Assembly (NCBI RefSeq): GCF_030684315.1
Contig: NC_081369.1
Coordinates: forward strand, 2,966,689-3,030,688
Direction: 5' to 3'
Length of the DNA stretch: 64,000 bases
DNA from: Stegostoma tigrinum
Lineage: Eukaryota
Shown: positions 1,385 to 50,739 of the stretch, piece by piece
Layout of the letters: every line of letters begins with the position of its first letter
Numbering within the stretch: the stretch's first letter is position 1
Notes under the pieces: generated by a model
Database searches by the model: none
What the model was told of the DNA's origin: nothing
The model's input: the letters and a program-made list of their open reading frames with translations, nothing else
Made by a program: the position numbers and the translations under genes

Positions 1385-2052
1385 TTTCGGAGACCATCCA
1401 CGGACTTGATACAATAACAAGACACTGACCTGTTTAGAAAAACACAAATCCTTTATTACCAAGCAAGCAGCAAAAGCTGTGGTGAATCGCTGTGCTTAAC
1501 CCGGCACAGAGTGCAGAGTCTCGTAAGTAATTCTCCCCGACAACAGACGAAGACAGGATACAAAACAATTATTACATCAAGAATATAAAAGACCGCGATA
1601 TAGTATCGATCGTTCGTGAAGTGACTGATAATGGCAGGAGGCGACTTCAAGTTGTTAACGTGACAGATTGTAAATTCAAGTTGCCGATGTGTCTGGCTGG
1701 AACAAAGTCGGCGCCCTGGGCCCTTTGTCAGAGACAGAAGTCACATACTTCAGAAGTCTCATACCTTTACAAATGCTCCTCACTTCACCTTATTTGAGAC
1801 AGTTTCCACATACCCCCGTGCAGGAAGATAAAGATTTGCACAATTTAACTCTAATTCTATTCAAGCAGGAAGCTTAAGGCAGTGTCAGCATACCTATGTG
1901 TAGGAAGATAAGGAGTTACAAAGTTTTACACCTAATTTCTAGTTGGGCATGAAGTTTGAAGGCAGTGCCTGCATACCCATATGTAGGCAGATAAAGGGCA
2001 TTAATTTATAGAAGTATAGAAATCAATGTGATGTTATCCCAATAACATCTCA
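1385..2052 (-). repeat. 3' LTR of the ERV (lacks ~100 bp spanning the TATA box; outer end ragged)
   Basis: Direct repeat of 8692-9469; inner end ...catctCA at 2052; adjacent PPT at 2053-2064 (AAAAGGAGGGAA on -); AATAAA on - near 1452-1457; imperfect ~80-bp repeats in U3. Confidence 0.9.
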
Positions 2053-2080
2053 TTCCCTCCTTTTATCATTTCATGATAAC

Positions 2081-3480
2081 CTATATCGGGGTCGAGAAGG
2101 GAGCTGCCAGCCTGCCAAACACAAATCTACGGCAAGGATTCGGGCATGCCATAAATGTACAGCAGCCAGCTATGATAACTATTAGAATTAACCCATGCAG
2201 CAAGTATAAGCCGCAAGAACCGCTCATAAGCCATCCCAACAAGCACTCCCCAGGTCGGGGTCCGTCTCTGTGCTGTTCCAACTGCCCCTGTATGGCTTGA
2301 ATAACCTGGGTAATGTTATAGGACACGTTGGTGACATGGGTAATGCACTTATCCCCTATAATAGGTCATACTCCTCCTTGCTGAGCCAGCTGATAGTCCA
2401 CTGCTTACCGGGTTTGCTGAGCATAGGGCCGAAGTTCAGCTAATTCTTGGTTGACTGCCTTCCAGTGCCGTCATTGTGCTGTTTCCCAGTGCGGTGAGTC
2501 CACATACAAGGTAATTTCGATTTTTTGCGGCCACCACCCCCGAGGAGCTTCCCAAGCTGACAGTTCCCAGGAAGCCGTATTCTCAAGGAAGAGTTCAAGG
2601 CAGTTGGGTTCTGCCATGCATCGCAAAACTCTTGGCTCAGGAAGCGTGTGACAATTCGCCGTTGAATTCGTGCTTGTTCGGGTCAAAGGACGGTGAGGGG
2701 CCCAATGGTCCCAACAGCACCAGCAGCGTTGGCGTGGCAGTAGTGAAGGTCCCGTTAAAGAGGAAAACGAATCCCTTTTTAGCCCGGTAGCAGGTAACAG
2801 ACTCACGTATTTCTTGATAGCTATGCCCAAAGGACTGACCCTTATGTGGATGGAAGTTTGCGGAGTTAAACGGAAATGACCCATAGTCCGTTTTTACATG
2901 AGTGCCATTGCAATCCCCACAAGTCCACTGTATGCCCGGGGTCACAGTTACGGGCTTACATTCCAAGCAGGGTCAATTCAACAATCCTCCTCTAGTTGTG
3001 CAATTTCTCTTTACGCACTGATGGGGCCAGGAAACATTATGGGGATGATTAGTGACCAGAGCAGGCACACAACAAGTCCCAGTTCCATTAAAGCAAAACG
3101 GATAGCTGTTGGGATTTGTACAGTTAGCCCGTTCCTTCCCATGCCCAGGTCTAGTGTCCCCGCAACCAGAGAGACCACTAACTACCAATTCCACACACTT
3201 ACCCTGCACACCTTTCATCCAAGTCCCCCTCTCCCCTCTGCAAGGCTTACCGGAATACTCTACTTCATAAAGCTGACTCGGGTTCCAGGCAGGTGTTGCC
3301 ACAAATAACGCTCCTACAGATCTGCTAGCGGGTAACATACTGTCTGATTCCCTTGCAGCCGGATGTGTGTTCTATAAAACAGATTGTCCTACTGGCCACG
3401 CATGGGCAGAATAACACTCAGTCCAATGGTTAACTGCACGCTGATGTGGAAATCCATCGTTTGCAGTCACTTAGGTGGAT
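2081..3480 (-). pseudogene. env: ERV env remnant (gamma-type TM subunit)
   Basis: The - strand reads ...AVNQELAELRPYAQQTR*AVDYQLAQQGGV*PIIGDKCIT... (immunosuppressive-domain and CX6CC-like region with stops), then a hydrophobic anchor LYLLHGLILIVIIAGCC (ORF 2081..2326). Cys-rich SU fragments lie upstream. Confidence 0.85.
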
Positions 3481-3482
3481 CC

Positions 3483-5090
3483 AGCGATTCTGCCCTTTAA
3501 CTTTAAGAGCTGTCGGAGTTGAAGAAACACTTGATATGGTCCTTTCCACCTTGGTCTAAGCTTGGGACGATCTCAGTCCCGGACAAGTAAAAAAATCTCC
3601 AATCTGCGGCCACGAAGACCGTTTGCAGAGGCGGTCCAAAGGCGCACTTCACCTGTAAACAGAGAAACTTTAGAGATGATGTTAGTTGTCGGAAGTGCTT
3701 TTGCATTTCTTCTCCCGTCACATTTAGGTCAATTTGGATGGGTGGGCTAACATTGGCATCCCATGTTGTTCTGATGGGTCGGTCGTAGACTATTTCCGCT
3801 GCTGAGAGCCCAGTAGTAGAGTGGGGTGTTATTCGCATGTGATACAAGGCTAGTGGCAAAGCTTTTAGCCAATTAAGGCCGGTCTTAAATGCCAACTTGG
3901 TTAATTTAGTTTTAAGTGTACCGTTAGCTCTTTCCACTATCCCTGCCGCCCGGGGGTGGTAAGCACAGTGGAATTGCTGTTGGATGTGTAACGTATCACA
4001 CAGTTCCTCATTAATCTTCCCTACAAAGTGAGGGCCGTTGTCAGAATTAGTCTGTCGCGGCGCTCCAAACCTCGCTATTATTTCAGTTAATAATAGTTTT
4101 ATACTGCTCAGGCTTTGTTGTTTGTCATTGGGAACACCTCTATCTACCTACTGAATACATCTACAATGACAAGACAATATTTATGACAGTTTACGTGTCG
4201 TAATTCAATAAAATCTAACTGAATGCATTCAAACGGTCCACCTGGCAAGGGTGTTTTTCCTGGTGAGCATCTCACCCCCGACCCACATTGTTTTGCTGGC
4301 ATGTGAGACATGATGCTATACGAGACTGGGCTGCCTCAGTCAGTCTGGGGTGCCACCAGGTATAGAGCATAATACCACTCATTCCCTCCGTGCCAAGGTG
4401 GGTGTCAGAATGCAGACAGAGAGAAACATAGGCAACAAAGTATCAGGTCCACACACTTGGCCGACTGGGGTAACCCAAATGTCTGAGGACGCAGAATGCA
4501 AACATCCATGCGCCTTCCAAATATTCTTTTCAGGAGCAGGGGCATCCCCCTGTAAGTGCCGAACAGTGACTATATCTGGCATGCCCGTCTTGTCTGAAGG
4601 CGTGCGATTTACCGCCTGCTTGTTCATAGAAGGTATAATAAAAATTTGGTCTGCAGCAGCCTGGTTAGCAGCCAGATCAGCCCAAGCGTTGCCCCGAGTA
4701 ACTATAGAATCAACGGAGGCATGGGCAGCGCATTTGATAATAGTCAATTGTTTAGGGAGGGGCATTGCCTGGAGAAGGTTTTTAACAGACAGGGAATTGT
4801 GGATGGGCGTACCTGAGGAAGTTAAAAATCCACACTGCGTCCGGAGAACGGAATGGGGCATCAGTAAGGCCCGGGCGGGGAGAGGTTAGAAATTGGTTCC
4901 TTAAGAGGCAATCATGTGGGGGTTCGCTCAGAAATGTGACTGGGTTAATATTGGAGCAGGAAGAGATAAGGAATAAATCGCAGGGCGAATCTGGGAACAA
5001 GGGGGTAATCCTTGAGCTACAGTGTCCAGGCGAGTGGAGTAGTAGGCAACCGGTCGTTATAATTCAAGTTTAAAGGGCCTATTGTAAAGC
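3483..5090 (-). pseudogene. pol: ERV pol 3' half: connection, RNase H and integrase (frameshifted, internally deleted)
   Basis: RPVAYYSTRLDTVAQGLPPC (connection); NINPVTFL..HDC..RPGLTDAP; IIKCAAH..GNAWADLAA (RNase H); SDNGPHF and ERANGTLK..WLKALPLAL..RITPHSTTGLSAAEI (integrase). Confidence 0.9.
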
Positions 5091-6319
5091 TGTCAGCTTC
5101 AGTACGTGTGTGTGTAAGTGATGTAGTTGACTGCGACAGCTATGTTCTTGATATCTGAAGAATGGCAGCACATACGCAAGAGGACGAAACAGTAATGTGG
5201 TGTTGAAACCACAATGAGATCAGCCATGATCTTAGTGAATGGCAGAGTACATTTTCAAGGCTGAACAGCCTACTCGTGCTCTAAGTCCTATGTTCACTAT
5301 TAAGGAATAGCAGGGCGGGTACGGGGGGTGGTGTCAGTGAAGGCCTGCACACAATCACTGCCGTAACAGAGCTGTACGGTACACAGGAAAGTGATCAATT
5401 TAACAGCTGACAAATCAGACAAACACAGTAGAAATGCGACAGCACGTAGTGGGGGTTCAGGATTGGCTGGCTTTAATTCGTGGCTTCATTGTAGCCCTAG
5501 TGTATGCAGAAGCAGCAGACGAGAGTAGGATGACTGTCCACGTACAGGCAGTAAACAGTGAACACTGGGGTGGGGCAGGGGATTGGGTTCAGAATGAGAG
5601 CATTCGCTCCCTCACATTGTGGACTTAAGGGGGACACCAAGGGGCGTCGACTGACCCATGGCAGCTATGACTCTAGTGGTAGTGAGGCAGATCCACACAC
5701 GGGGTAGGATATCTTCAATGCCCACTCCACATGATGATTGCTATCAGTTAGGAGGAAGGGCAACAGGGTTAATACACAGGAGGAATCTCTGCTCTGGGTC
5801 ATGTCTCATTTGCACAGCGTCACAATATGCTATTTGCCAAACTGAACCAGGGAGGCAGTATGGGCACTAACATTGCCATGGTGTCCTGAACTTCGAGAGA
5901 GTGTGGCAGGAGGGGGAAGAAAACTCCAGTTGGTTTTTAAAAATTACCAAGCAAAAGTTGGATGTTTTGGATATGTGTGTACGTCACCATCAGTCAAAAG
6001 CTAGTCAAGAATTATAGTGTAAATTGACAAAATTATACATGCTAAACAAAGTAAACAAGTTTAACACACACATAAATCAGGAATTCTTGGAAAAAAAGAG
6101 AATTAAGGTTTCAGGTCCATCGACCCTTCGTCAAAACGGGAATGAATGAATAGATGATGGGCCCTAGGACCCAGCGGAGCCACAGCTGTGGGAGAAACCA
6201 CAACCGGCAGTTTCAAGAGGCATCAATTACCTGGGTAAGTGGTTGTGAATTTCAAAGCAATGGCGCCTGCCATTGATGGAAAGACGCTCTCTTGCCTTTA
6301 AGCAAGAGGGAGGGGGGGC

Positions 6320-6712
6320 GGATTTTCGCGGTGCTGGATATCTCGAATGGTTTCCGGTCTGTCCCGGTTCGGCAGGAGGACCAGTACAAATTCGCATTTA
6401 CTTGTAAAGGACAACAGTACACGTGGAGTTGTCTGCCACAGGGTTTCCATTATAGCCCCAGCATTCTCCACCAGTGTACAGCAGACTGTTTAAAAAATTT
6501 CACTGAGCCACACAGGCTTGTACAGTACGTGGACGACATCCTGTTGTTCACAGACAATAGTGAGGAACATGGCACCCTACTGAGTGAGTTGTTGCAACTC
6601 CTGTGCAAGAGCGAGTTGAAGGTGAACCCTAAGAAGGCACAGATAGGGTTGAGGGAGGTCAGGTTCCTAGGACTGACCCCGAGGGCTGGAGAGCGCTGCA
6701 TAGATGCAGCAC
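6320..6712 (+). pseudogene. Reverse transcriptase core fragment of a different retroelement, inverted relative to the host ERV
   Basis: ORF 6292..6813: FAVLDISNGFRSVP..QYKFAFTCKGQQYTWSCLPQGFHYSP..QYVDDILL..KVNPKKAQ..VRFLG. Confidence 0.88.
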
Positions 6713-6721
6713 AGGCTAAAG

Positions 6722-7950
6722 AGGGCTTGGGGGGTGTCTTGGTACATTTGAATAGTGCCCGGGATGTAATCTATCAAATCTTCTGTGTTAGTCTTTTGAT
6801 CAGGGGGCCTTGACATAATTAAACACATCTCTTGCGGCTCCCAAGGGGTATAGACCTACATTGTATTTTGACCCCCTTGTGTTGGGTTCGGGTGAGGGAC
6901 CGTGTGATTGGGGTGGCTATTCGAGGGTCTCTTTCAAACTCTGTACTCACATTCACTGTCCTCTGCCTGTGAGTCGGGACTATCATATTCTTTGCTACTT
7001 GTGGAGTCGCTAGGAAACCTTAAACAGGTGTTAGAGGGTCGAGTGAACTGCACCTGGGACTTATGTTTCCTCAGGCTTCTCATGGGTTTTAAAAGAATCC
7101 TGTCTTCCTTCCTTTTGTTCACTAATGGTCTGGCCTGTGTTCTGTTTCCTGATTGTTTAGTTTTAGACCTAGTACAACAAGAGATAGGGTCTGTAAAAGC
7201 CGGGGGTTTGTCAGGGGATTCATGTGGGCTGATTATTGAAGGGCTTGGAGATTCTACAGCAGGAGGTTTGGTTTGGTCAGCGTACGGTGGCGGTGATAGG
7301 GCTGCGGGCGATTACTGAGGCTGATGGCATTGTTGGGGTGCCTGCTGATGCAGGTTGGCTAAGGACGGGTAGGGTCGTGGAGGGGGTAGTGGTCCCGATG
7401 GGGCAGAGGGGTGCCTTCCCCAGTCCTCCTCGTCTTGTTCATCTGTGTCATTAATTTGGAGCAACATCGGCACGCCAGATATGTCAGGAGGTACCTCCGA
7501 TTTTTTGTTTTCTGTCAACGCGGCCTGCCGCTCTCGCCCCGTTCTTTGTCTCGTTGCTCTCTCTCCTGCCTTTCTTGTTTAACTCTTTCCCGTTCATTCA
7601 TCTCATGATCCTCCCACTGCAGTTTTAAAACTTCCCAAGTTTTAGGTTTCCCCTCATTATCACAGGCACTGATCCCTTTCCAACGTGCATTTTCCACCCA
7701 ACTGGCCAGTTTTGATTTTCCAGTCAGCTCCTCAGCTCTCTTTCTCCAGAATGACATTAACCCTTTCCGGTGCCTCCTGTTTTAGTACATAGATCTATAT
7801 CCCACGTTCTCTCGAATGGCCAATTCTCATGTCCCAATTTTTGTTTCAGCATGCCAACAGACGTCTGTATTGTACTTCATTTTCTGGGTCATCCCGGCAT
7901 AACCTATGTGAAGGGGTTCCAACACCCGACTTATCCAGCGCTTTCACTTT
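6722..7950 (-). pseudogene. gag: ERV gag 5' half (MA, Pro-rich region, start of CA), truncated
   Basis: Fragments KALDKSGVGTP, WPFERTWD (MA-like), charged EREQRDKER stretch, PLPPPRPYPSL, and VYTPWEPQE (CA N-terminus-like) just before the junction at ~6720. Confidence 0.7.
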
Positions 7951-8159
7951 TTACTTGTTTCTATATACCACAGCAGTGTCCTTAGTCTCAACACCCACTT
8001 CAGGGTCCTGACCTTCGCGTGGAGGATTTCCCCTCTTAACAACCGGTCTGAGGCAGGGTGGTTGAGACCGACAGACACTGTAACTATTCTATACCTAGGT
8101 CTGAACACATTATACCTTTCCAATCTTATACTAACCCCTCTCCCTTTTTCCAATTGCCC

Positions 8160-8470
8160 GACTCAGGGACTCAAACCCGGTCACCGGGGGTCTCTATCGT
8201 CCCGGATTTTATTTTTTTTTTCCCAGTTACTTGTCCCAGGGACTTTCGCCCCGGCCACCAGGAGAATCGAACCTCCCGGATTTTTTTCTTTGTTTTAGTT
8301 ACTTGTCTCAGGGACTCTAACCCCGGCCACAGGGGGCCTCTAACCTCCCGGATTTCCTTTCCCAGTTCCACCGGGTCACTCTGACCTCCCGGATTTCTTT
8401 ACCCAGTTCCACCGGGGGACTCTAACCTCCCGGATTTCTTTACTAACCTGGGGTCTCGAACCTCCAATCG
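8160..8470. repeat. Imperfect tandem repeats in the ERV leader
   Basis: Recurrent ctctaacctcccggatttc / cccggccac units of ~40-75 bp. Confidence 0.75.
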
Positions 8471-8671
8471 TTAGGATTTAGCAGTGTTCTAGACCTTGAG
8501 TTGTCTCGGGGTTCCGTCAGTGCAGAGCCACGCAGGGACGGGTCGCATGGGTGGCAGGTTAGTGAGATAGACCAATGTGAATCGTACCTTGTGGGCCGGT
8601 CCGTCTCACTCCACCGACACTCGAACGATCACTTATTCAGTCCTCCACGTGAGACTGCTGTACAGGTTGGA

Positions 8672-8689
8672 ACTCTGCTCGCAACACCA
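8672..8689 (-). promoter_or_regulatory. Primer-binding site, tRNA-Ser-like
   Basis: TGGTGTTGCGAGCAGAGT starts 2 nt inside the 5' LTR end; it resembles vertebrate tRNA-Ser 3' complements with a few mismatches. Confidence 0.7.
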
Positions 8690-8691
8690 AA

Positions 8692-9469
8692 TGTCAGGTT
8701 CGTTTTCGGAGACCCTCACGGACTTGATGCAATAACAAGACACTGACCCGTTTAGAAAAACACAAATCCTTTATTACCAAGCAAGTACAAGCTGTGGAGA
8801 ATCACTACTTAACCCGGCACAGAGTGCAGAGTCTCGTCAGTAATTCTCCCCGAGCAGCGGACAGTCTCCGCTTTTTATACTTTACTAAGTACATAATACA
8901 TAAAACAATTTCACATCTCACAATGACATGAGCTATTATCTAATGAAGCAATTATTACAACAGACAAAGACAGGATACAAGACAATTATTACATCAAGAA
9001 CATAAAAGACAACGATATAGTATCGATCGTTCGTGAAGTGACTACTAAAGGCAGGAGGCGATTTCAAGTTGTTAACGAGATAGAGTGTAATTTCAAGTTG
9101 CCGATGTGTCTGGCTGGAACAAAGTCAGTGCCCTGACCCCTTTGTCAGAGACAGAAGTTTCATACCTCAGAAGTCTCACATCTATACAAATGCTCCTCCC
9201 TTAACCTTATTTGAGACAGTTTCCATACACCCCCGTGCAGGAAGATAAAGATTTGCACAATTTAACTCTAATTCTATTCAGACAGGAAGCTTAAGGCAGT
9301 GTCTGCATGCCGATGTGGAGGGAGCTACGGAGTTACCATGTTTTACACCTAATTTCTAGTTGGGCAGGAAGTTTGAAGGGAATGTCTGGATACCTATATG
9401 TAGGCAGATAGAGGGCGTTAATTTATAGAAGTATAGAAATCAATGTGATGTTATCCCAATAACATCTCA
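8692..9469 (-). repeat. 5' LTR of the ERV
   Basis: TG...CA termini (8692/9469); TATAAAA on - at 8873-8879; AATAAA on - at 8770-8775; 14 mismatches to the 3' LTR in a hand-aligned 180-bp segment. Confidence 0.92.
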
Positions 9470-42023: not shown

Positions 42024-43450
42024 GTGACTGTCACAGAGGGGGAATGGGCAAGGTTAAATTACTCAGGCACTGTGTACGTTGATAATAGATGACAACAGCA
42101 GCAAGGGGTCTGCTTGCACTTTGGTACTGTTAAACAGGCTTCCTGTTTTAGTTCACGGGGAGCGAGACTCAACAGTGTCCATCAGACTTGCTGTTTGTCG
42201 TCAATCAAAGCTTGCCAGGCAGTATGATGTATTTAATCCTGTTTTACGCCGACCATTTTTTAAAAAGGATATTATATCCGCTATAATACTTCACTTGATT
42301 TAAGTAGCTATCGGGGAAACCTATTCCCAACACGATTTGGCAAGCAGTCCAGTCTGGAAAGTATTTTTTAGTTTCTAAAGGGGTAAAAGTCGGGTTCTCA
42401 AAATGAATTACCAAATAGGCGCGACTTGAAAATGAGATTTGGAAGCAAAGAACAAAGAATCAACGAGAAAATGATTAAAATTAAAAATGATTAAACGGAC
42501 ACAGCTACAGCGCGGTGTGAGTAATGCAAAAACGAGAGCAAATAATAAGTTCTCCAAAAAAGGAACTGGCTTTTGGAAAACATCCAAACGTAGGCTGCCA
42601 TGGAACGAAGTATGAAATGCTGTCTCATAAATGTTGGGTTTCCTCACACTGACGGATTGGAATATTAAGGACTTGCTCACTGAACATTTAATTGAAAAGT
42701 CTGGACTGTTGTTCAGAGTGCTTCTAGAGTAAATTTATAACGAGAAATGGAATTACATTGCTTTCAAAAACGATTTGGAGGAGGTTTACTCATTACATCG
42801 GAATTAAATTTACAAGGAAATGTTTATTTCTGTTACTTGCAACTTTTAGAGGCTTGAGTCTCTCCTTAAATCGTGATTTTAAGAAGTCGGTAAAGTTTTC
42901 TGGCCACATTACCTCGTTATGTTGATGCAATCAGTCTACGGACATGAAATCGCATTATGGAAATAATTTTGAACGCTGCAGTTTATCTGAATCATGATTA
43001 GGTCCTGGGGGCACTTGCTCAAGACTGTGCAACAGGCTCAAATGCGACTGGGCCGTTTTGCAAAGAAACTGCCTTCAAAATGGATAATACCAGTTATTAA
43101 GGTGAGATCGCAACTGGATATTGTTACCTGAAAATGAGGTTTCGAAGCATAGAACAAATAATCAACGAGAAAATGATTAAACGTAATCCTGACAAGTGTA
43201 TGCAAAGATCGCTTGTCGTTTCAATTCACATTGTGTAAATAATGTGAGCTCAGCTGGGAAACCAAAATATTTCCCAGTGTCAGTCGGGAACTAATGATTG
43301 CGAAGGAGAATGAACCAAAGGGGGCAATTTCATTACGTGCAATCAACTGAAGGATGTAGAGTTTTAAATTGTCAAAATAGTGCAAATTAATTTTGCTCAC
43401 AAGTTTTAAAAGTCCAGAGAAGTTCTGGGTGTGAGTTTGCTCGCTGAGCT

Positions 43451-43509
43451 GGAAGGTTCGTTTTCAGACGTTTCGTCACCATTCTAGGTAACATCATCAG
43501 TGAGCCTCC
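43451..43509 (-). ncRNA. Minimal type I hammerhead ribozyme (Penelope pLTR)
   Basis: GGAGGCTCA-CTGATGA-TGTTACCTAGAATGGTGAC-GAAAC-GTC-TGAAAACGAACCTTCC on the - strand; intact core. Confidence 0.8.
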
Positions 43510-45932
43510 GACGAAGCGCTGGTGTTACGACCCGCTTTCTATTTATCTGGTTAGGGTTCCTTGGGTTGGTGATGTCATTTCCTGCGTTGGTGATGTCATT
43601 TTCTGTTCTTTTCCTCAGGGGGTGGTAGATTGGCTCCAAATCAATGTGTTTGTTGATGGAGTTTCGGTTGGAATGCCATGCTTCTAGGAATTCTCGTGCA
43701 TGTCTCTGTTTGGCTTGTCCGAGGATGGATGTGTTGTCCCAATCAAAGTGGTGTCCTTCCTCATCTGTATGTAAGGATACGAGTGATAGTGGGCCATGTC
43801 GTCTTGTGGCTAGTTGATGTTCATGTATCCTGGTGGCTAGCTTTCTGCCAGTTTGTCCAATGTAGTGTTTGTCACAGTTCTTGCAAGGTATTTTGTAGAT
43901 GACGTTCGTTTTATTTGTTGTCTGCTGTTTTAGTATGTTGGTGGGTTTGTGGGCTACCCTGATGCCAAGAGGTCCGAGTAGTCTGGCAGTCATTTCGGAA
44001 ATGTCTTTGATGTAGGGGAGAGTGGTTATGGTTTCTGAGCCCGTTTTGTCTGTTTGTTTGGGTTTATTGCTGAGGAATCGGCGGACTGTGTTCATAGGGT
44101 ACCCGTTCTTTTTGAATACACTGTATAGGTGATTTTCTTCTGCTCCTCGTAGTTCCTCTGTGCTGCAGTGTGTGGTGGCTCATTGGAATAATGTTCTAAT
44201 GCGGCTTCGTTTGTGGGTGTTGGGATGGTTGCTCCTGTAGTTCAGTATTTGGTCCGTATGTGTTGTTTTCCTGTAGATGCTGGTTTGAAGTTCCCCAATG
44301 GCTGTTCGCTCTACTGTGACATCTAGGAATGGCAGTTTGTTGTTTTCCTCCTCTTTTGTGAATGTTATGCCAGTAAGGGTATTATTGATGGTCTTGAAGG
44401 TTTCCTCTAATTTGTTTTGTTTAGTGATGACAAAGGTGTCATCCACATAGTGGACCCAAAGTTTGGGTTGGATGATTGGCAGAGCTGTTTGTTTGAGTCT
44501 CTGCATTACTGCCTCTGCTAAGAACCCTGATATCGGAGATCCCATGGGTGTACCGTTGGTTTGTCTGTAGGTTTTGTTATTGAAAGTGAAGTGGTTGGCA
44601 AGGCATAGGTCCACTAGCTTGATGATGTTGTCCTTGCTGATGAGGTTGGTGGTGTCTGGTGTATGTGTCTTCTGTTCTTCTAATAGTGTCATCAGTGTTT
44701 CTTTGGCCAGGTTGATGTTGATGGATGTGGACAGGGCTGTTAGGTCAAAGGAGACCATTATTTCATCCTCTTCTATCTTGGTGTCTTTGATGGTGCTCAG
44801 GAGTTCTTGGGTGGAGCAAGTGGAGTGATGGGAGTCTTTTACTAGGTGTTTTAGTGTTTGGTGTAGTTCCTTGGCTAATCTGTAGGTTGGTGTTCCAGGT
44901 AGCGAGACTATGGGTCTGAGGGGGGCTCCTGGTTTGTGAATTTTTGGTAGTCCGTAGAAGCATGATGTGTTGGATCCATCTGGTTTCATTTTTTGGAAGT
45001 CTCTCTTGTTTAATTCTCCAGATTTTTGAAGTTTTTTGAGTAAGGCTGTGATTCGGTTCTCTAGTTCTCTATCAATAACACCCTTACTGGCATAACATTC
45101 ACAAAAGAGGAGGAAAACAACAACAAACTGCCATTCCTAGATGTCACAGTAGAGCAAACAGCCAATGGGGAACTTCAAACCAGCGTCTACAGGAAAACAA
45201 CACATACGGACCAAATACTGAACTACAGGAGCAACCATCCCAACACCCACAAACGAAGCTGCATTAGAACATTATTCCAATGAGCCACCACACACTGCAG
45301 CACAGAGGAACTATGCAGAGCAGAGGAAAATCACCTATACAGCGTATTCAAAAAGAATGGGTACCCTATGAACACAGTCCGCCGATTCCTCAGCAATAAA
45401 CCCAAACAAACAGACAAAACGGGCTCAGAAACCATAACCACTCTCCCCTACATCAAAGACATTTCCGAAATGACTGCCAGACTACTCGGACCTCTTGGCA
45501 TCAGGGTAGCCCACAAACCCACCAACATACTAAAACAGCAGACAACAAATAAAACGAACGTCATCTACAAAATACCTTGCAAGAACTGTGACAAACACTA
45601 CATTGGACAAACTGGCAGAAAGCTAGCCACCAGGATACATGAACATCAACTAGCCACAAGACGACATGACCCACTATCACTCATATCCTTACATACAGAT
45701 GAGGAAGGACACCACTTTGATTGGGACAACACATCCATCCTAGAATAAGCCAAACAGAGACACGGACGAGAATTCCTAGAAGCATGGCATTCCAACTGGA
45801 ACTCCATCAACAAACACATTGATTTGGAGCCAATCTACCACCCCCTGAGGAAAAGAACAGGAAATGACATCACCAACCCAAGGAAACCTAACCAGATAAA
45901 TAGAAAGTGGGACATAACACCAGCGCTTCGTC

Positions 45933-45991
45933 GGAGGCTCACTGATGATGTTACCTATAATGGTGACGAAACGTCTGAAAACGAACCTTCC
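45933..45991 (+). ncRNA. Minimal type I hammerhead ribozyme (Penelope pLTR)
   Basis: CTGATGA at 45942-45948, stem II GTTACC/GGTGAC, GAAAC-GTC with predicted cleavage after 45975, stem I TCA/TGA plus GGAGG/CCTTCC. Confidence 0.8.
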
Positions 45992-46239
45992 AGCTCAGCG
46001 AGCAAACTCACACCCAGAACCTCAACCTGAGCTACAAATCTTCTCAAAACCCGCTAGTCCAGAGAAGTATTTCATGAAAATCTTCAATCATTGATGTTCT
46101 ATTTGGAATTCAGCCAATGGCATGCCTAATGAATGACTTGGATGTCTATCATATATAGACAAAGGCTGTTTGCAGCTCCACTGAAACAGTTCCGAGAAAA
46201 TGACTTTTCCTTTATCTGACAAAACATTAACATCCTGGG

Positions 46240-46454: not shown

Positions 46455-49034
46455 CATTAACATCTTGGGAGTTGCCCAGGTCCTGAACTGCCTATACAAT
46501 ATCTGCAAGATTTTGATCTTCTTCAATAGCTTGAAGGGCCAAAAGTCTTACTTTTGCTCTTTATTAACATATGCATTTGAATATTTGGAGATAATGATGA
46601 CAAATTAAAACTAAAGGCTTTCATCTACCAGGAGTTAACATCAGTGTAAGGGAGATAAATGAGCAGGAGCTGGTGTGCATTCAGATACTAACTGCAGATT
46701 ATTTGAATTGCATTAATTGCAGTGGGCATAACTAGCTGCCCTTGGCAAGAAGCTTAAAATAATCAAGTTGCATGTTAACTTAGGCATGGATGAGTGATGC
46801 ATTGTGATAAGATCCCGAAGAGATATCTCAAGGTGGTGCAGATATAAGACTGGAAGTTTATCTCAGAGCCAAATGTACTGCTGCACATTGACAGTGTTTG
46901 TCCTACTTTAAGGTGCACTGTAGCAATGCATCATGGCTTACTCAATAACATCACCCAAATCTGTGACTTCTAACATTTAGAAGTACGTGGGTAGCAGATG
47001 CATGGGAACACCAGTCTAGCGAAGTTCCCATCGAAAACACATACCATCCTGGCTTGGAAATATATTGCCGTTCTTTCACTAGCCCTTAGCCAAAATTCTG
47101 GAATTCCCTTCCTAACAGCACTGTGGATGTCCTGATACCCTAAGGGCTACATTGGCTCATCAAAGCAGTTTATCCAGAGGGCAATAAATGCTGACTTACC
47201 AACGATGCCCCCATTCCAAAAACGAATGAAGAAATATAAGATTCAGCTTGCAAGTTTTCTTCAGCTTTGTAGCCAGGAAGATGAATGGTTTCAGTGGCAA
47301 TGTGAAAGACTTTGACAGACATCAAAATTAATTCTTCTCAAAACTTAGTGTTGGACTGTTTCTGCTTACTTGTATAGGAGACTGGATGAGCAGTCAGACA
47401 GTTTAGGAAGAATTGACTGTGGCTCTGATGAGGTCGGTATGGGTGCTGCCAGTATATACCATTAGCTGGCCAGTCATCAGCTGACTGGCCTGCTGTGTTC
47501 CTCCAGCTCCACACTGTGTTTGTCTGTGACTCCAGTGTCTGCAGTTCTTGCTAATTCTGAGTGATTTATACCATTATCTGGTGTGCATTCAGATGATGCC
47601 CTCGAAGGGCATGGCAATGAAGAGAAATAGGAGCAGGCTGAGGATAGCTACTAATATAGCACCAGATATAATGGCATGTGTGCTGACGACCCATTAAGGT
47701 GTTATGCTCACCATACAGTATGTTTAGCCCATATATCCCACAAAGAACTGTGAGTCAGCTTTTCATAGTAATATGAAATGACCTTTATTGGTTATAACGC
47801 AATTAGTATTACAGTAATGAATATGCTACAAACTAACAAATAATATGATAAATCTGATAATTATTACTGTAAATCTAAGGCAGTATCTTGTACTTTAACT
47901 TAACTCAGAATGATCAAACCTTGGCCTTGATCCAACCAGTTGTCTGGTCTTCCGCTCCTGGTGGTCACAAAGGCCCATCTTCCTGCGGTGGTTGGTCTCA
48001 AGTTACCGCTCCCAACGGTGAAGTTGTGGTGATTCTTATCCTTCTGCACCCTTTTGGGAGAATCTTTGATTCCCACCAATGGATCAATCACGAATCAATT
48101 ACTCTGATCGATCAGACCCAATTAGGAAGTACCTTGCGGATGGTGGGGTGGGCATTGGTCATCCATTTCTCAGAGTGTCAGGGGCACATAAGTCAGGTTG
48201 GCTTCCTAGATAAGAGTGAGAGGTGTCCCCTTGTTCTGGAAACAGCTCAAATGTTTCCTATTGTCCTGGTAAATAGGCTTAGTCAATTGTGCAATGTGCT
48301 GTCTGCAGCTGCAGCGTCGAAGGGCATTGCAATGAAGTACGAGGGTAGCAGATGCATGGGAACACCAGTGATGCCAAGTTCCCATCCAAAACACATACCA
48401 TCCTGTCTAAGTCTGCAGCTTGTTTATTTCAGTATCTTTGCATAGATACTTTGGCTACCGCTTGGCTTAATTTCCCAGCATGCTTGGTCCGATACGTCCG
48501 ATTCTGCCATTTGAGTGGCCCATCCTACTACACTCCATGCTGTTGATCATGAATGGAAATTGTGATGGTTCACATGATGGCAGAACAATTTCTGTGTGGT
48601 GACTGTATAATCATTCAAGTCCAAGCAAAGCACAACATACACTCAAACAACTAAACTCTTACAGACAGCACGTTGGGAAATGACACCTAACTGAGATCAA
48701 GCAAAATCATCAGAATAATTTACATAATTAGAACATCAAAATTCAAACTTAATCATGCAAATGTGGTAAACTAGGAATAAAGAAGAGTTCAGCAATTCAT
48801 TGTGATGATCAAACAACATTACAAAATAAGGGTCATATACATATATATTAGGAGTGATTATACAAGTTTTGTACCCATAAACAAATAATCCATAGCATGA
48901 AGAAATGTTAGTACTCATTTTTATGTTAGAGAATACTACAGAAAGAAAAATATTGAATCTATTTGATTTAATTAAGTTGGGAATTATACACATACTTTAA
49001 AAAGTAAAGGGAGTAGTAAACTGAGTGCCGCAGC

Positions 49035-49520
49035 TGTTCCTGGAAGGTAAATGCAAATTTATACTGACGGGACCGGTGTAAGGGTATGGATCAGAAACCA
49101 TTACCAATATCAAGCACTGTGTAGTATTTTGGTGGCAGAGCTTGCTTCATTATTGTGGCTGGGCTGGTGACTACTGTTGATGCAATGAGGGGATTGAATT
49201 TATTGAGTTCCTGGTCGTCAATAGTTAAATACCATGAAACACCTCGCTTCCTGACAGACCAAATTGGAGCATTATTGGTGGAGGCTACTGCAGCAGGCTT
49301 TGGCTACCGCCCTTCTGCAGTATTGGTGAAACTGTATTGTCTTTGTGGTTTTCGGTTTGGCTCCTCGATTATCGCCCCTCCCGGTTTACGCCCACGGTCA
49401 TGTTTATATTGGGTGAATACCCCCATGTGTTTCATAATCGCTTCTTGTATGGCTAGATCCTTGGTCATTGTTAGAGAATTGAACCAAAACTCTCCTACTG
49501 TATTGATCCGATTAACATAA
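49035..49520 (-). pseudogene. pol: RT N-terminal remnant
   Basis: One frame with two stops: FTQYKHDRG..KPQRQYSF..ASTNNAPIWSVRK..WYLTIDDQELNK..KYYTVLDIGNGF*SIPL..QYKFAFTFQ. Confidence 0.85.
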
Positions 49521-49945
49521 TTTCCTGTTCAGCTGATGTGTGGCGCCTTGCTAATTGGGGGCATCTTCCATATGCATGAATTTAATGGGTTAAAGGCATG
49601 TGGGATGTGTTGGAGATGGTCCAGGTGAACTGAAGGTTAGAATTGGCTGCCTGCTTCCCTTGAATTTTCCTCAATGTCTTTGCCTCAGGGATCCTGGTCC
49701 CTCTTCATCATTACTGCAAAATTCTGCCCATATGGACCACTTTTCCTAACTAATACATTGTCTTACCTTCTTTTCCCATACTGAACAACTTCTACACTGC
49801 CGCCTTTTCCAGCCATTTCTGATTTACCTAAAGGGTAGAGGGGGTGGATCGGATTGAAGACACCGATTTTGCTATGTTTCACTCCTAATCCCACCGGGTG
49901 TCTAATGACTTTCGGTGTTTGACCTTACCACTCCCACTAAGGATC

Positions 49946-49971
49946 ACACACACACACACACACACACACAC
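49946..49971. repeat. (CA)n microsatellite
   Basis: Uninterrupted CA run. Confidence 0.95.
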
Positions 49972-50101
49972 CAGTTGGCTTTATTGAAACCCTGGCCGTC
50001 ACGTGGGCCTTAGACATCTCAAATCAGGCTCAGGCAAAATTTCAGGGAATATCGGGTTCCGTGGGGTTCGATCTCAGTGTGACAAACTCACTTCTTATCG
50101 A

Positions 50102-50119
50102 GTCTCATCTGGGGTGCCA
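50102..50119 (-). promoter_or_regulatory. Primer-binding site, tRNA-Arg(CCT)-like
   Basis: The + strand GTCTCATCTGGGGTGCCA matches the vertebrate tRNA-Arg(CCT) 3' end as I recall it (GTCCCATCTGGGGTGCCA) with one mismatch, 3 nt from the LTR terminus. Confidence 0.8.
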
Positions 50120-50739
50120 ACTTGTTGCATCGCCACAAAATGTATTTCATCTGTATCTACCACAAAGGACTGTGAGTCAGCTCTTAATTGTAATATGAAA
50201 TGGTCGTTATTGGTTGTAGCACAATTAATAATATAATAATGATTATGCCACAAACTAAAAATTAATATGATAAATCTGACAATTAATACTGTAAATCTAA
50301 GTCAGTATTTTGTACTTTAATTTAACTCGGAATGATCAAACTTCACCACACTAGACCTTGGCCTTGATCCAAGTGGTTGTCTGGTCTTCCCCTCCTGGTG
50401 GTCCCAAGAGCGCCTCTTCTTAATGGTGGTTGGTCTCGAGTCACTGCTCCCAACAATGCTGTTGTGGTGATTCTTATCCTTGAAAGCTTCTGCACCCTTT
50501 GGGAGAATCTTTGATTTCCACCAATGGATCAATCAGGAATTGATTACTCTGAAGGATCAGGCCCAATTAGGCGGTGTCATGTGAATGGTGGGGTGGTCTT
50601 TGATCCTCCATTTCTGGGAGTGTCAAGGCATGTAAGTCAGGTTGGCTTCTCAGATAAGAATGTAAGGTTTCTCTTCGTCGTGGAAACAGCTCAAAGTTTC
50701 CTATTGTCCTGGTAAATAGACTTAGCCAACTGTATCACT

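What the first reader, a model, noticed from the sequence alone, without database searches (positions are those of the whole stretch)
47700..50737. tRNA-Arg-primed LTR element with a foamy-like RT: candidate deep-branching retroviral lineage
The RT N-terminus has PQRQY, STNNAPIW.V.K, W.LTID..ELNK and KYYTVLDIGNGF(W)S. These parallel foamy-virus RT (PQKQY, STMNTPVYPVPK, KYKTTLDLANGFW) more than gamma/epsilon RT. However, the PBS is Arg-like rather than the Lys typical of mammalian foamy viruses. A diverged relative at 6320-6712 shows the family has more than one member here. Inference: a spuma-related or lokiretrovirus-like lineage in an elasmobranch. I cannot place it without a tree.
Basis: partly seen in the sequence, partly recalled or inferred. 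Interest (0 to 1): 0.7.

Follow-up and report, generated by a model that had tools for sequence, protein, structure and literature searches.

The report
Old shark snakehead-type retrovirus remnant
This is a decayed, twice-deleted copy of an old endogenous retrovirus family, likely of a shark, whose reverse transcriptase groups away from foamy viruses and lokiretroviruses and most likely with the known snakehead-fish retrovirus lineage; longer copies elsewhere in the genome keep a broken envelope-like gene that is weakly predicted to resemble paramyxovirus fusion proteins.

Summary
47700-50737 is a minus-strand LTR element with a tRNA-Arg(CCT) primer site (17/18) and an RT N-terminal fragment whose best PDB match is foamy RT. 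It is dead: about 2 kb of gag-pro and at least 4.4 kb of pol-env are deleted, and its LTRs differ by 0.18.

The interpretation mostly fails. In an RT tree the fragment sits in a shark family (100/99), inside a frog/coelacanth/shark clade (98/91), beside snakehead retrovirus (94/86). Grouping with foamy viruses (AU p=0.02) or lokiretrovirus-motif RTs (p=0.002) is rejected. Snakehead retrovirus also has an Arg primer site. This is clade Huo of Xu et al. 2018, whose whale-shark and elephant-shark members share its motifs.

The RT at 6320-6712 is a sister lineage, carried antisense inside an amplified chimeric epsilon-like ERV.

The most interesting residue lies outside the window. Longer copies carry a broken env-like frame, with homologues in five shark genera, that lacks gamma-type motifs and weakly matches paramyxo/pneumovirus F and foamy Env folds (low-confidence models). 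This scan noted similar SnRV-like shark ERVs before on other DNA, one with an F-type envelope.

The parts
47700..48534 (-). 3' LTR (about 745 bp plus a short insertion); TG start at 48534, CA end at 47700
48315..48402 (.). about 88-bp insertion of a host repeat fragment in U3 of the 3' LTR; absent from relatives; 91% like window 46980-47054
48535..49034 (-). non-coding stretch that lies downstream of the env position in longer copies; no env sequence is kept in this copy
   Evidence: env query P0145 has no hit in the window
49035..49597 (-). end of protease region and RT N-terminal half; stops, a 10-codon gap, cut at about 49035 by a deletion of 4.4 kb (vs L022, L024) to about 5.7 kb (vs L101) removing the rest of RT, tether, RNase H, integrase and env
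49598..49643 (-). junction of a deletion of about 2 kb removing most of gag and the protease active site
49644..50101 (-). leader, (CA)n microsatellite and start of gag
50102..50119 (-). primer-binding site for tRNA-Arg(CCT), 3 nt from the LTR end
50123..50737 (-). 5' LTR lacking about 130 bp of U3; abuts a SINE-like repeat, so the target-site duplication cannot be read
5059..6703 (+). NOT part of the element: 1.65-kb foreign segment with an antisense RT palm fragment (6316-6714) that replaces the RT of a different, epsilon-like ERV (1385-9469, minus strand)

Best explanation
The element is a dead, twice-deleted provirus of an old multi-copy endogenous retrovirus family, likely of a shark, whose RT most likely belongs to the snakehead-retrovirus-related clade (clade Huo). 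The parent virus likely worked as an ordinary retrovirus. RNA made from the 5' LTR would be primed by tRNA-Arg(CCT) and copied by an RT with a tether plus a second RNase H. The DNA would then be integrated with a 4-bp duplication. Gag carries a single zinc knuckle. A compact envelope with signal peptide, basic cleavage site, heptads and membrane anchor would have allowed infection; its fold is weakly predicted to be paramyxovirus-F-like. Copies spread in an old burst, many lost much of env, and all sampled ones have decayed. Shown: LTRs, primer site, deletions, domain order in relatives, tree position away from foamy and Loki. Inferred: infectivity, env fold, age, host.
For: Tree (48 rows, 239 columns, LG+C20+F+G4): family 100/99; clade with frog, coelacanth, Xenopus Pol 98/91; with SnRV 94/86; non-foamy retroviruses 97/93. 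AU rejects family+foamy (p=0.020) and family+Loki (p=0.0017); family+Gypsy p=0.020 in a smaller LG+G4 test. The SnRV genome (L076; P0021 99.4% identical, motifs equal the SnRV row of the PMC7947760 supplement) has a primer site matching tRNA-Arg(ACG). Relatives show tether (PF17919 E 1.8e-12), RNase H (PF00075 E 0.008, below cut-off) and integrase in order. A CCHC-like knuckle is in 7 of 18 family loci scanned. A 4-bp TSD is exact in 2 of 3 readable pairs. The Xu 2018 supplement lists ca_mi_ERV1, la_ch_ERV4 and Na_pa_ERV7 with the same RT motifs and rh_ty_ERV2 with similar Gag and protease motifs; these names stand around Snakehead_retrovirus and the label Clade Huo in the text of its tree figure (compared by eye). 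Env frame.
Against: The node joining SnRV is just short of strong support (94/86) and got only 75/76 in the LG+G4 tree. The window fragment fills only 42% of columns. The first AU test against foamy was borderline (p=0.046). No ERV-L/ERV-S, teleost foamy-like or published shark ERV sequences were in my trees. SnRV Gag and Env gave no tblastn hit on family loci at E 0.01, and the env profile vs SnRV Env was weak (E 0.042, probability 1%). Env models have pLDDT 54 and 44, PDB fold hits are non-significant, and the wide VIA search found only generic helices. The two LTRs are no closer to each other (81%) than to the best other copy (82%) and no TSD is readable, so a single integration is inferred from collinearity only.
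Confidence: 0.85

Rival explanations
1. A foamy-related (clade Tu) ERV of cartilaginous fish with an unusual primer tRNA.
For: Best PDB hits of both RT fragments are foamy RTs. The env fold hints include foamy Env (ranks 8 and 15, non-significant). A 4-bp TSD is also typical of foamy viruses (recalled).
Against: A foamy clade with newt elements and a catshark RT (P0187) forms at 100/97 without this family; AU p=0.020. Identity to foamy RT is 27-34% vs 39% to SnRV. Gag has a zinc knuckle, which spumaviruses lack (PMC2717909 passage). No foamy-specific Pfam family hit among the frames scanned.
Confidence: 0.05
2. A lokiretrovirus, which would be the first in cartilaginous fish.
For: Dual RNase H. 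An F-like env and a coiled-coil N-terminal ORF resemble Loki features. The Loki survey found 0 in the 5 cartilaginous-fish genomes of the rows I saw.
Against: It lacks the Loki RT signature (CPFGYxNSP) and has the SnRV-type LPQGFHxSP. AU p=0.0017. Identity to Loki-motif RTs is 32%. Its closest named relative is from a frog in which the survey marked no lokiretrovirus. Caveat: my two Loki rows are unnamed contigs labelled by motif.
Confidence: 0.02
3. A distinct basal lineage, sister to but separate from SnRV, that deserves its own rank among non-foamy retroviruses.
For: The shark/frog/coelacanth clade is well supported (98/91) while its link to SnRV is weaker (94/86; 75/76). Env is about 2.1 kb against 3.4 kb in SnRV, with no BLAST similarity.
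Against: Members of that clade were already sampled and placed in clade Huo, so it would be a subdivision of a known clade.
Confidence: 0.07
4. An ordinary Ty3/Gypsy retrotransposon.
For: The integrase C-terminus hits a Tf2-like SH3 model weakly (E 0.002).
Against: Tether plus second RNase H; RT identity 15-24%; AU p=0.020; the retrovirus node is 99/93.
Confidence: 0.01

Closest known systems
Snakehead retrovirus (SnRV) and clade Huo ERVs (Xu et al. 2018, PMC6001957), notably whale-shark rh_ty_ERV2, elephant-shark ca_mi_ERV1 / CmiERV lineage I (PMC4422223), coelacanth la_ch_ERV4 and frog Na_pa_ERV7
   Same: RT clade and motifs (LDISNGFWS, LPQGFHxSP, YVDD); Arg primer site; single CCHC knuckle; tether plus RNase H; long Pol tail; non-gamma Env with a weakly alignable cysteine pattern.
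   Different: Arg(CCT) instead of Arg(ACG); 3-nt rather than 1-nt gap between LTR and primer site; env about 2.1 kb rather than 3.4 kb; RT only 51% identical to SnRV; old and decayed. No SnRV accessory ORF matched.
Foamy viruses and fish/amphibian foamy-like ERVs (clade Tu)
   Same: N-terminal RT motifs resemble; Env possibly shares the paramyxo/pneumovirus F core shown for foamy Env (PMC11468914); 4-bp TSD.
   Different: RT outside the foamy clade; zinc knuckle in Gag; conventional N-terminal signal peptide on Env homologues (read by eye); Arg primer site.
Lokiretroviruses (Wang and Han 2021, PMC7947760)
   Same: Dual RNase H; possibly F-like Env.
   Different: RT inside Retroviridae proper; no Loki RT signature.

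Membership tests
Clade Huo / SnRV-related ERVs | RT groups with snakehead retrovirus, outside foamy and class I clades | tested here: met
   94/86; 75/76; FastTree 0.90. Moderate support.
Clade Huo / SnRV-related ERVs | Groups with the published Huo members (ca_mi_ERV1, rh_ty_ERV2, Na_pa_ERV7) in a tree | tested here: inconclusive
   Motif comparison by eye only; those sequences were not in my tree, and long runs of the supplement are cut.
Clade Huo / SnRV-related ERVs | tRNA-Arg primer site as in SnRV | tested here: met
   Arg(CCT) here, Arg(ACG) in L076; the primer tRNA is a weak taxonomic marker.
Retroviridae (vs Metaviridae) | Tether plus acquired RNase H; env after pol | tested here: met
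   In relatives, not in the window copy.
Spumaretrovirinae / clade Tu | RT within the foamy clade | tested here: not met
   (p=0.020); earlier test p=0.046
Spumaretrovirinae / clade Tu | Gag without zinc knuckle | tested here: not met
   CCHC-like motif (loose pattern) in 7 of 18 family loci
Spumaretrovirinae / clade Tu | Pol from its own spliced mRNA; internal promoter and tas/bet genes (recalled) | not tested
   The gag-pol junction was not resolved in decayed copies.
Spumaretrovirinae / clade Tu | Env with paramyxo-F-like core | tested here: inconclusive
   Low-confidence models; foamy Env among weak hits.
Lokiretroviruses | RT sister to all retroviruses, in the Loki clade | tested here: not met
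   (p=0.0017)
Lokiretroviruses | Env similar to PF00523 fusion glycoproteins | tested here: inconclusive
   No PF00523 hit; the best PDB profile hit is henipavirus F at E 0.13; BFVD paramyxovirus F0 at E 1.1e-4 on a pLDDT-44 model.
Lokiretroviruses | CGIN1-like integrase | not tested
   No integrase tree was built.
Ty3/Gypsy | Single ancestral RNase H; RT among Metaviridae | tested here: not met

The most novel reading that the evidence does not exclude
The family's envelope is a compact paramyxovirus/pneumovirus-F-type fusogen on a retrovirus whose RT lies on the orthoretrovirus side of the tree. With foamy viruses and lokiretroviruses also F-like, that would make an F-type Env ancestral to all retroviruses and the gamma-type Env a later replacement. 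It would favour the shared-ancestry scenarios (1 or 3) of the four left open by Wang and Han 2021.
Probability: 0.45. Interest if true: 0.6.

Novelty: new member of a known kind. Interest (0 to 1): 0.3.

Why it matters
The locus itself is an ordinary dead provirus, and its lineage is in print. It shows that a foamy-like best hit in shark DNA often means the snakehead-related clade, for which the PDB search showed no solved RT. The part with wider value is the family's envelope. If it is F-like, three early branches of the retroviral tree share that fold, which bears on the open question of where retroviral Env came from. That evidence comes from other copies and other sharks, and it is weak so far.

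Tried and rejected
Lokiretrovirus: I took it seriously after the dual RNase H and a coiled-coil ORF appeared, and rejected it by RT motifs and tree.

Env-less family: a count of stop codons shared among post-integrase regions found no long open frame. That came from the mostly env-deleted copies, and the longest copies (L101, L105, L108) overturned it.

Searches that found nothing useful: viral-contig search with P0002; Loki pattern in viral contigs; Pfam on 29 post-integrase frames and on P0145; PDB sequence search of P0145; wide VIA fold search, generic helices only; BLASTP of env against SnRV Env. An MHR pattern hit none of 18 loci, nor the SnRV control, so it was uninformative. No clear polypurine tract is seen in the window copy, and my scan in relatives printed nothing.

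Left open: lokiretroviruses in this genome were not searched successfully; the protein atlas gave no answer; the 91-row IQ-TREE run timed out; the paper on a cartilaginous-fish foamy virus (PMC9972966) is not held.

Full report
OBSERVATION. The window lies on contig C19 of a 3.2-Gb genome. The element is on the minus strand. Its repeats align at 474 of 556 bases, a K2P distance of 0.184-0.187. Relatives show that the LTR is about 745 bp: the 3' copy runs 47700-48534 with an 88-bp repeat insertion, and the 5' copy (50123-50737) lacks about 130 bp of U3 and abuts a SINE-like repeat. The primer site at 50102-50119 matches host tRNA-Arg(CCT): of 10 genome hits to a pattern made from it, 9 are such tRNA genes and one is the window. 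The RT motifs are as quoted, in one frame with two stops. Foamy PR-RT is the best PDB hit for both RT fragments.

THE FAMILY. The RT fragment has 152 matches from 150 scored of 736 candidates. The LTR has 41 matches from 40 scored of 131 candidates, 76-82% identical apart from itself and one short piece. I fetched 60 stretches around high-scoring places. Against them the window copy lacks about 2 kb of gag-pro and 4.4 to about 5.7 kb from mid-RT to beyond env. Relatives show a Gag with a coiled-coil-like start (by eye) and a CCHC-like knuckle (7 of 18 loci, loose pattern), a protease motif (3 of 18), RT, tether, a second RNase H, integrase and a Pol tail. A 4-bp duplication is exact in 2 of 3 readable pairs. 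LTR-pair distances in 8 other copies are 0.12-0.21, several over short overlaps. At the shark rate assumed in PMC10699275 (0.5e-9) the window copy would be about 185 Myr old; the rates used in PMC7947760 and PMC4422223 give about 40 and 420 Myr, so only 'old' is safe. The host is likely a shark, since the nearest named relatives are shark proteins.

PLACEMENT. The closest intact RTs are unnamed proteins P0002/P0126, partly identical to a Mustelus gene model, then frog and coelacanth 'NYNRIN-like' Pol. References came from tools: named foamy Pol and newt and catshark foamy-like RTs; virus records found by motif; two contigs with the lokiretrovirus RT signature. L076 is taken as SnRV because its RT motifs equal the SnRV row of the PMC7947760 supplement. 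The epsilon, gamma, gypsy and Loki labels rest on motifs or recall. The final tree (48 rows chosen from about 170 RT rows) gives Gypsy, then Loki, then foamy (100/97, including the catshark RT), then all other retroviruses (97/93). The window fragment is in the shark family (100/99), in a frog/coelacanth/shark clade (98/91), joined to SnRV at 94/86. A 46-row LG+G4 tree gave that last node only 75/76. AU tests reject family+foamy (p=0.020; 0.046 in the smaller test) and family+Loki (p=0.0017; 0.0035). SnRV's own primer site matches tRNA-Arg(ACG), so the Arg site fits this clade and is no anomaly. ERV-L/S and teleost foamy-like rows were missing from my trees.

IN PRINT. Xu et al. 2018 define clade Huo as SnRV-related and present in all major vertebrate groups. 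Their supplement holds elephant-shark, coelacanth, eel and frog elements with the same RT motifs, and a whale-shark element with similar Gag and protease motifs that is listed next to SnRV in the tree text. Han 2015 found an SnRV-like lineage in elephant shark. The shark element of PMC10699275 was placed with foamy-like ERVs. I could not show that this exact family is catalogued.

THE SECOND RT. The fragment at 6316-6714 is 69-70% identical to P0013 and pairs with it at 100/99, sister to the family (94/69). It lies antisense in a 1.65-kb segment that replaces the RT of an epsilon-like ERV, and the chimera is itself multi-copy. It is not a second member of the 47.7-kb family.

ENVELOPE. The window copy has none. 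Most sampled copies carry large deletions there, but L101, L105 and L108 keep a frame of about 2.1 kb with signal-peptide-like start, basic cleavage site, heptads, cysteine-rich middle and membrane anchor. No gamma-type immunosuppressive motif was found in 14 regions scanned. The frame has 122 matches from 117 scored of 504 candidates, 120 of them with stops. It has 19 homologues in the representative library; 9 of the 10 looked up are named, all from five shark genera. Hints of an F-like fold: henipavirus F tops the PDB profile search (E 0.13); one homologue hits Baculo_F below cut-off (E 0.001); pneumovirus F, coronavirus S and foamy Env lead two Foldseek lists without significance; and all 4 BFVD hits at E below 0.001 are viral glycoproteins, among them a paramyxovirus F0 and two nidovirus spikes. 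Against: both models are poor (pLDDT 54 and 44), long helices can drive such hits, and the wide VIA search showed nothing specific. Foamy Env is F-like (PMC11468914) and Loki Env resembles F (PMC7947760). [quoted passage not shown] Two earlier notes of this scan on other genomes reach similar readings; I saw them after forming mine, and they are not independent support.

PAPERS SEEN. PMC7947760: parts 1-3 of 4, supplement parts 1 and 75 and two searches. PMC10699275: parts 1-2 of 4. PMC4422223: part 1 of 2. PMC6001957: passages and supplement searches, with long sequence runs cut. Passages only: PMC12440569, PMC2717909, PMC11468914, bioRxiv 2023.10.26.564294 and 2024.03.17.585361 (their supplements were not seen and may bear on the env claim). 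PMC9040795: a term search with no hits. PMC9972966: not held, title only.

VERDICT. A real but ordinary remnant: a new member of a known retroviral clade, not a new deep lineage. Interest 0.3, resting mainly on the family's envelope.

Noticed in passing
window 1385-9469 (minus), insert 5059-6703: An epsilon-like ERV (LTR distance 0.088; primer site looks Ser-like, recalled) whose own RT region is replaced by a 1.65-kb foreign segment holding an antisense RT fragment of a clade-Huo virus. The chimera was itself amplified: 64 matches from 40 scored of 522 candidates, 82-89% identical for most; 4 of 5 loci checked are collinear with the window on both sides.
   Followed up: partly
L033, L034, L039: A third ERV lineage in this genome; L033 has a Ser-like primer site and a gamma-type transmembrane motif (read by eye). 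Its RT groups with a minnow Pol, apart from SnRV (99/96), and resembles whale-shark rh_ty_ERV4 by motif.
   Followed up: partly
window 43419-46023: Two inverted retroelement copies, 97% complementary over 776 nt, with RT and endonuclease-like frames; Penelope-like by recall.
   Followed up: no
L029-L032 (G000:C59, 1.96-2.02 Mb): Four near-identical degraded relatives of the family at about 17-kb spacing, beside receptor-like open frames: likely a segmental tandem array.
   Followed up: no
P0157, P0004, P0187: Shark gene models that fuse retroviral pieces to host genes: env transmembrane part on fbxo15 (Heterodontus), pol on a lipid symporter (Mustelus), a foamy-clade RT with a PR/SET domain (Scyliorhinus). 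Exonisation or annotation error is undecided.
   Followed up: no
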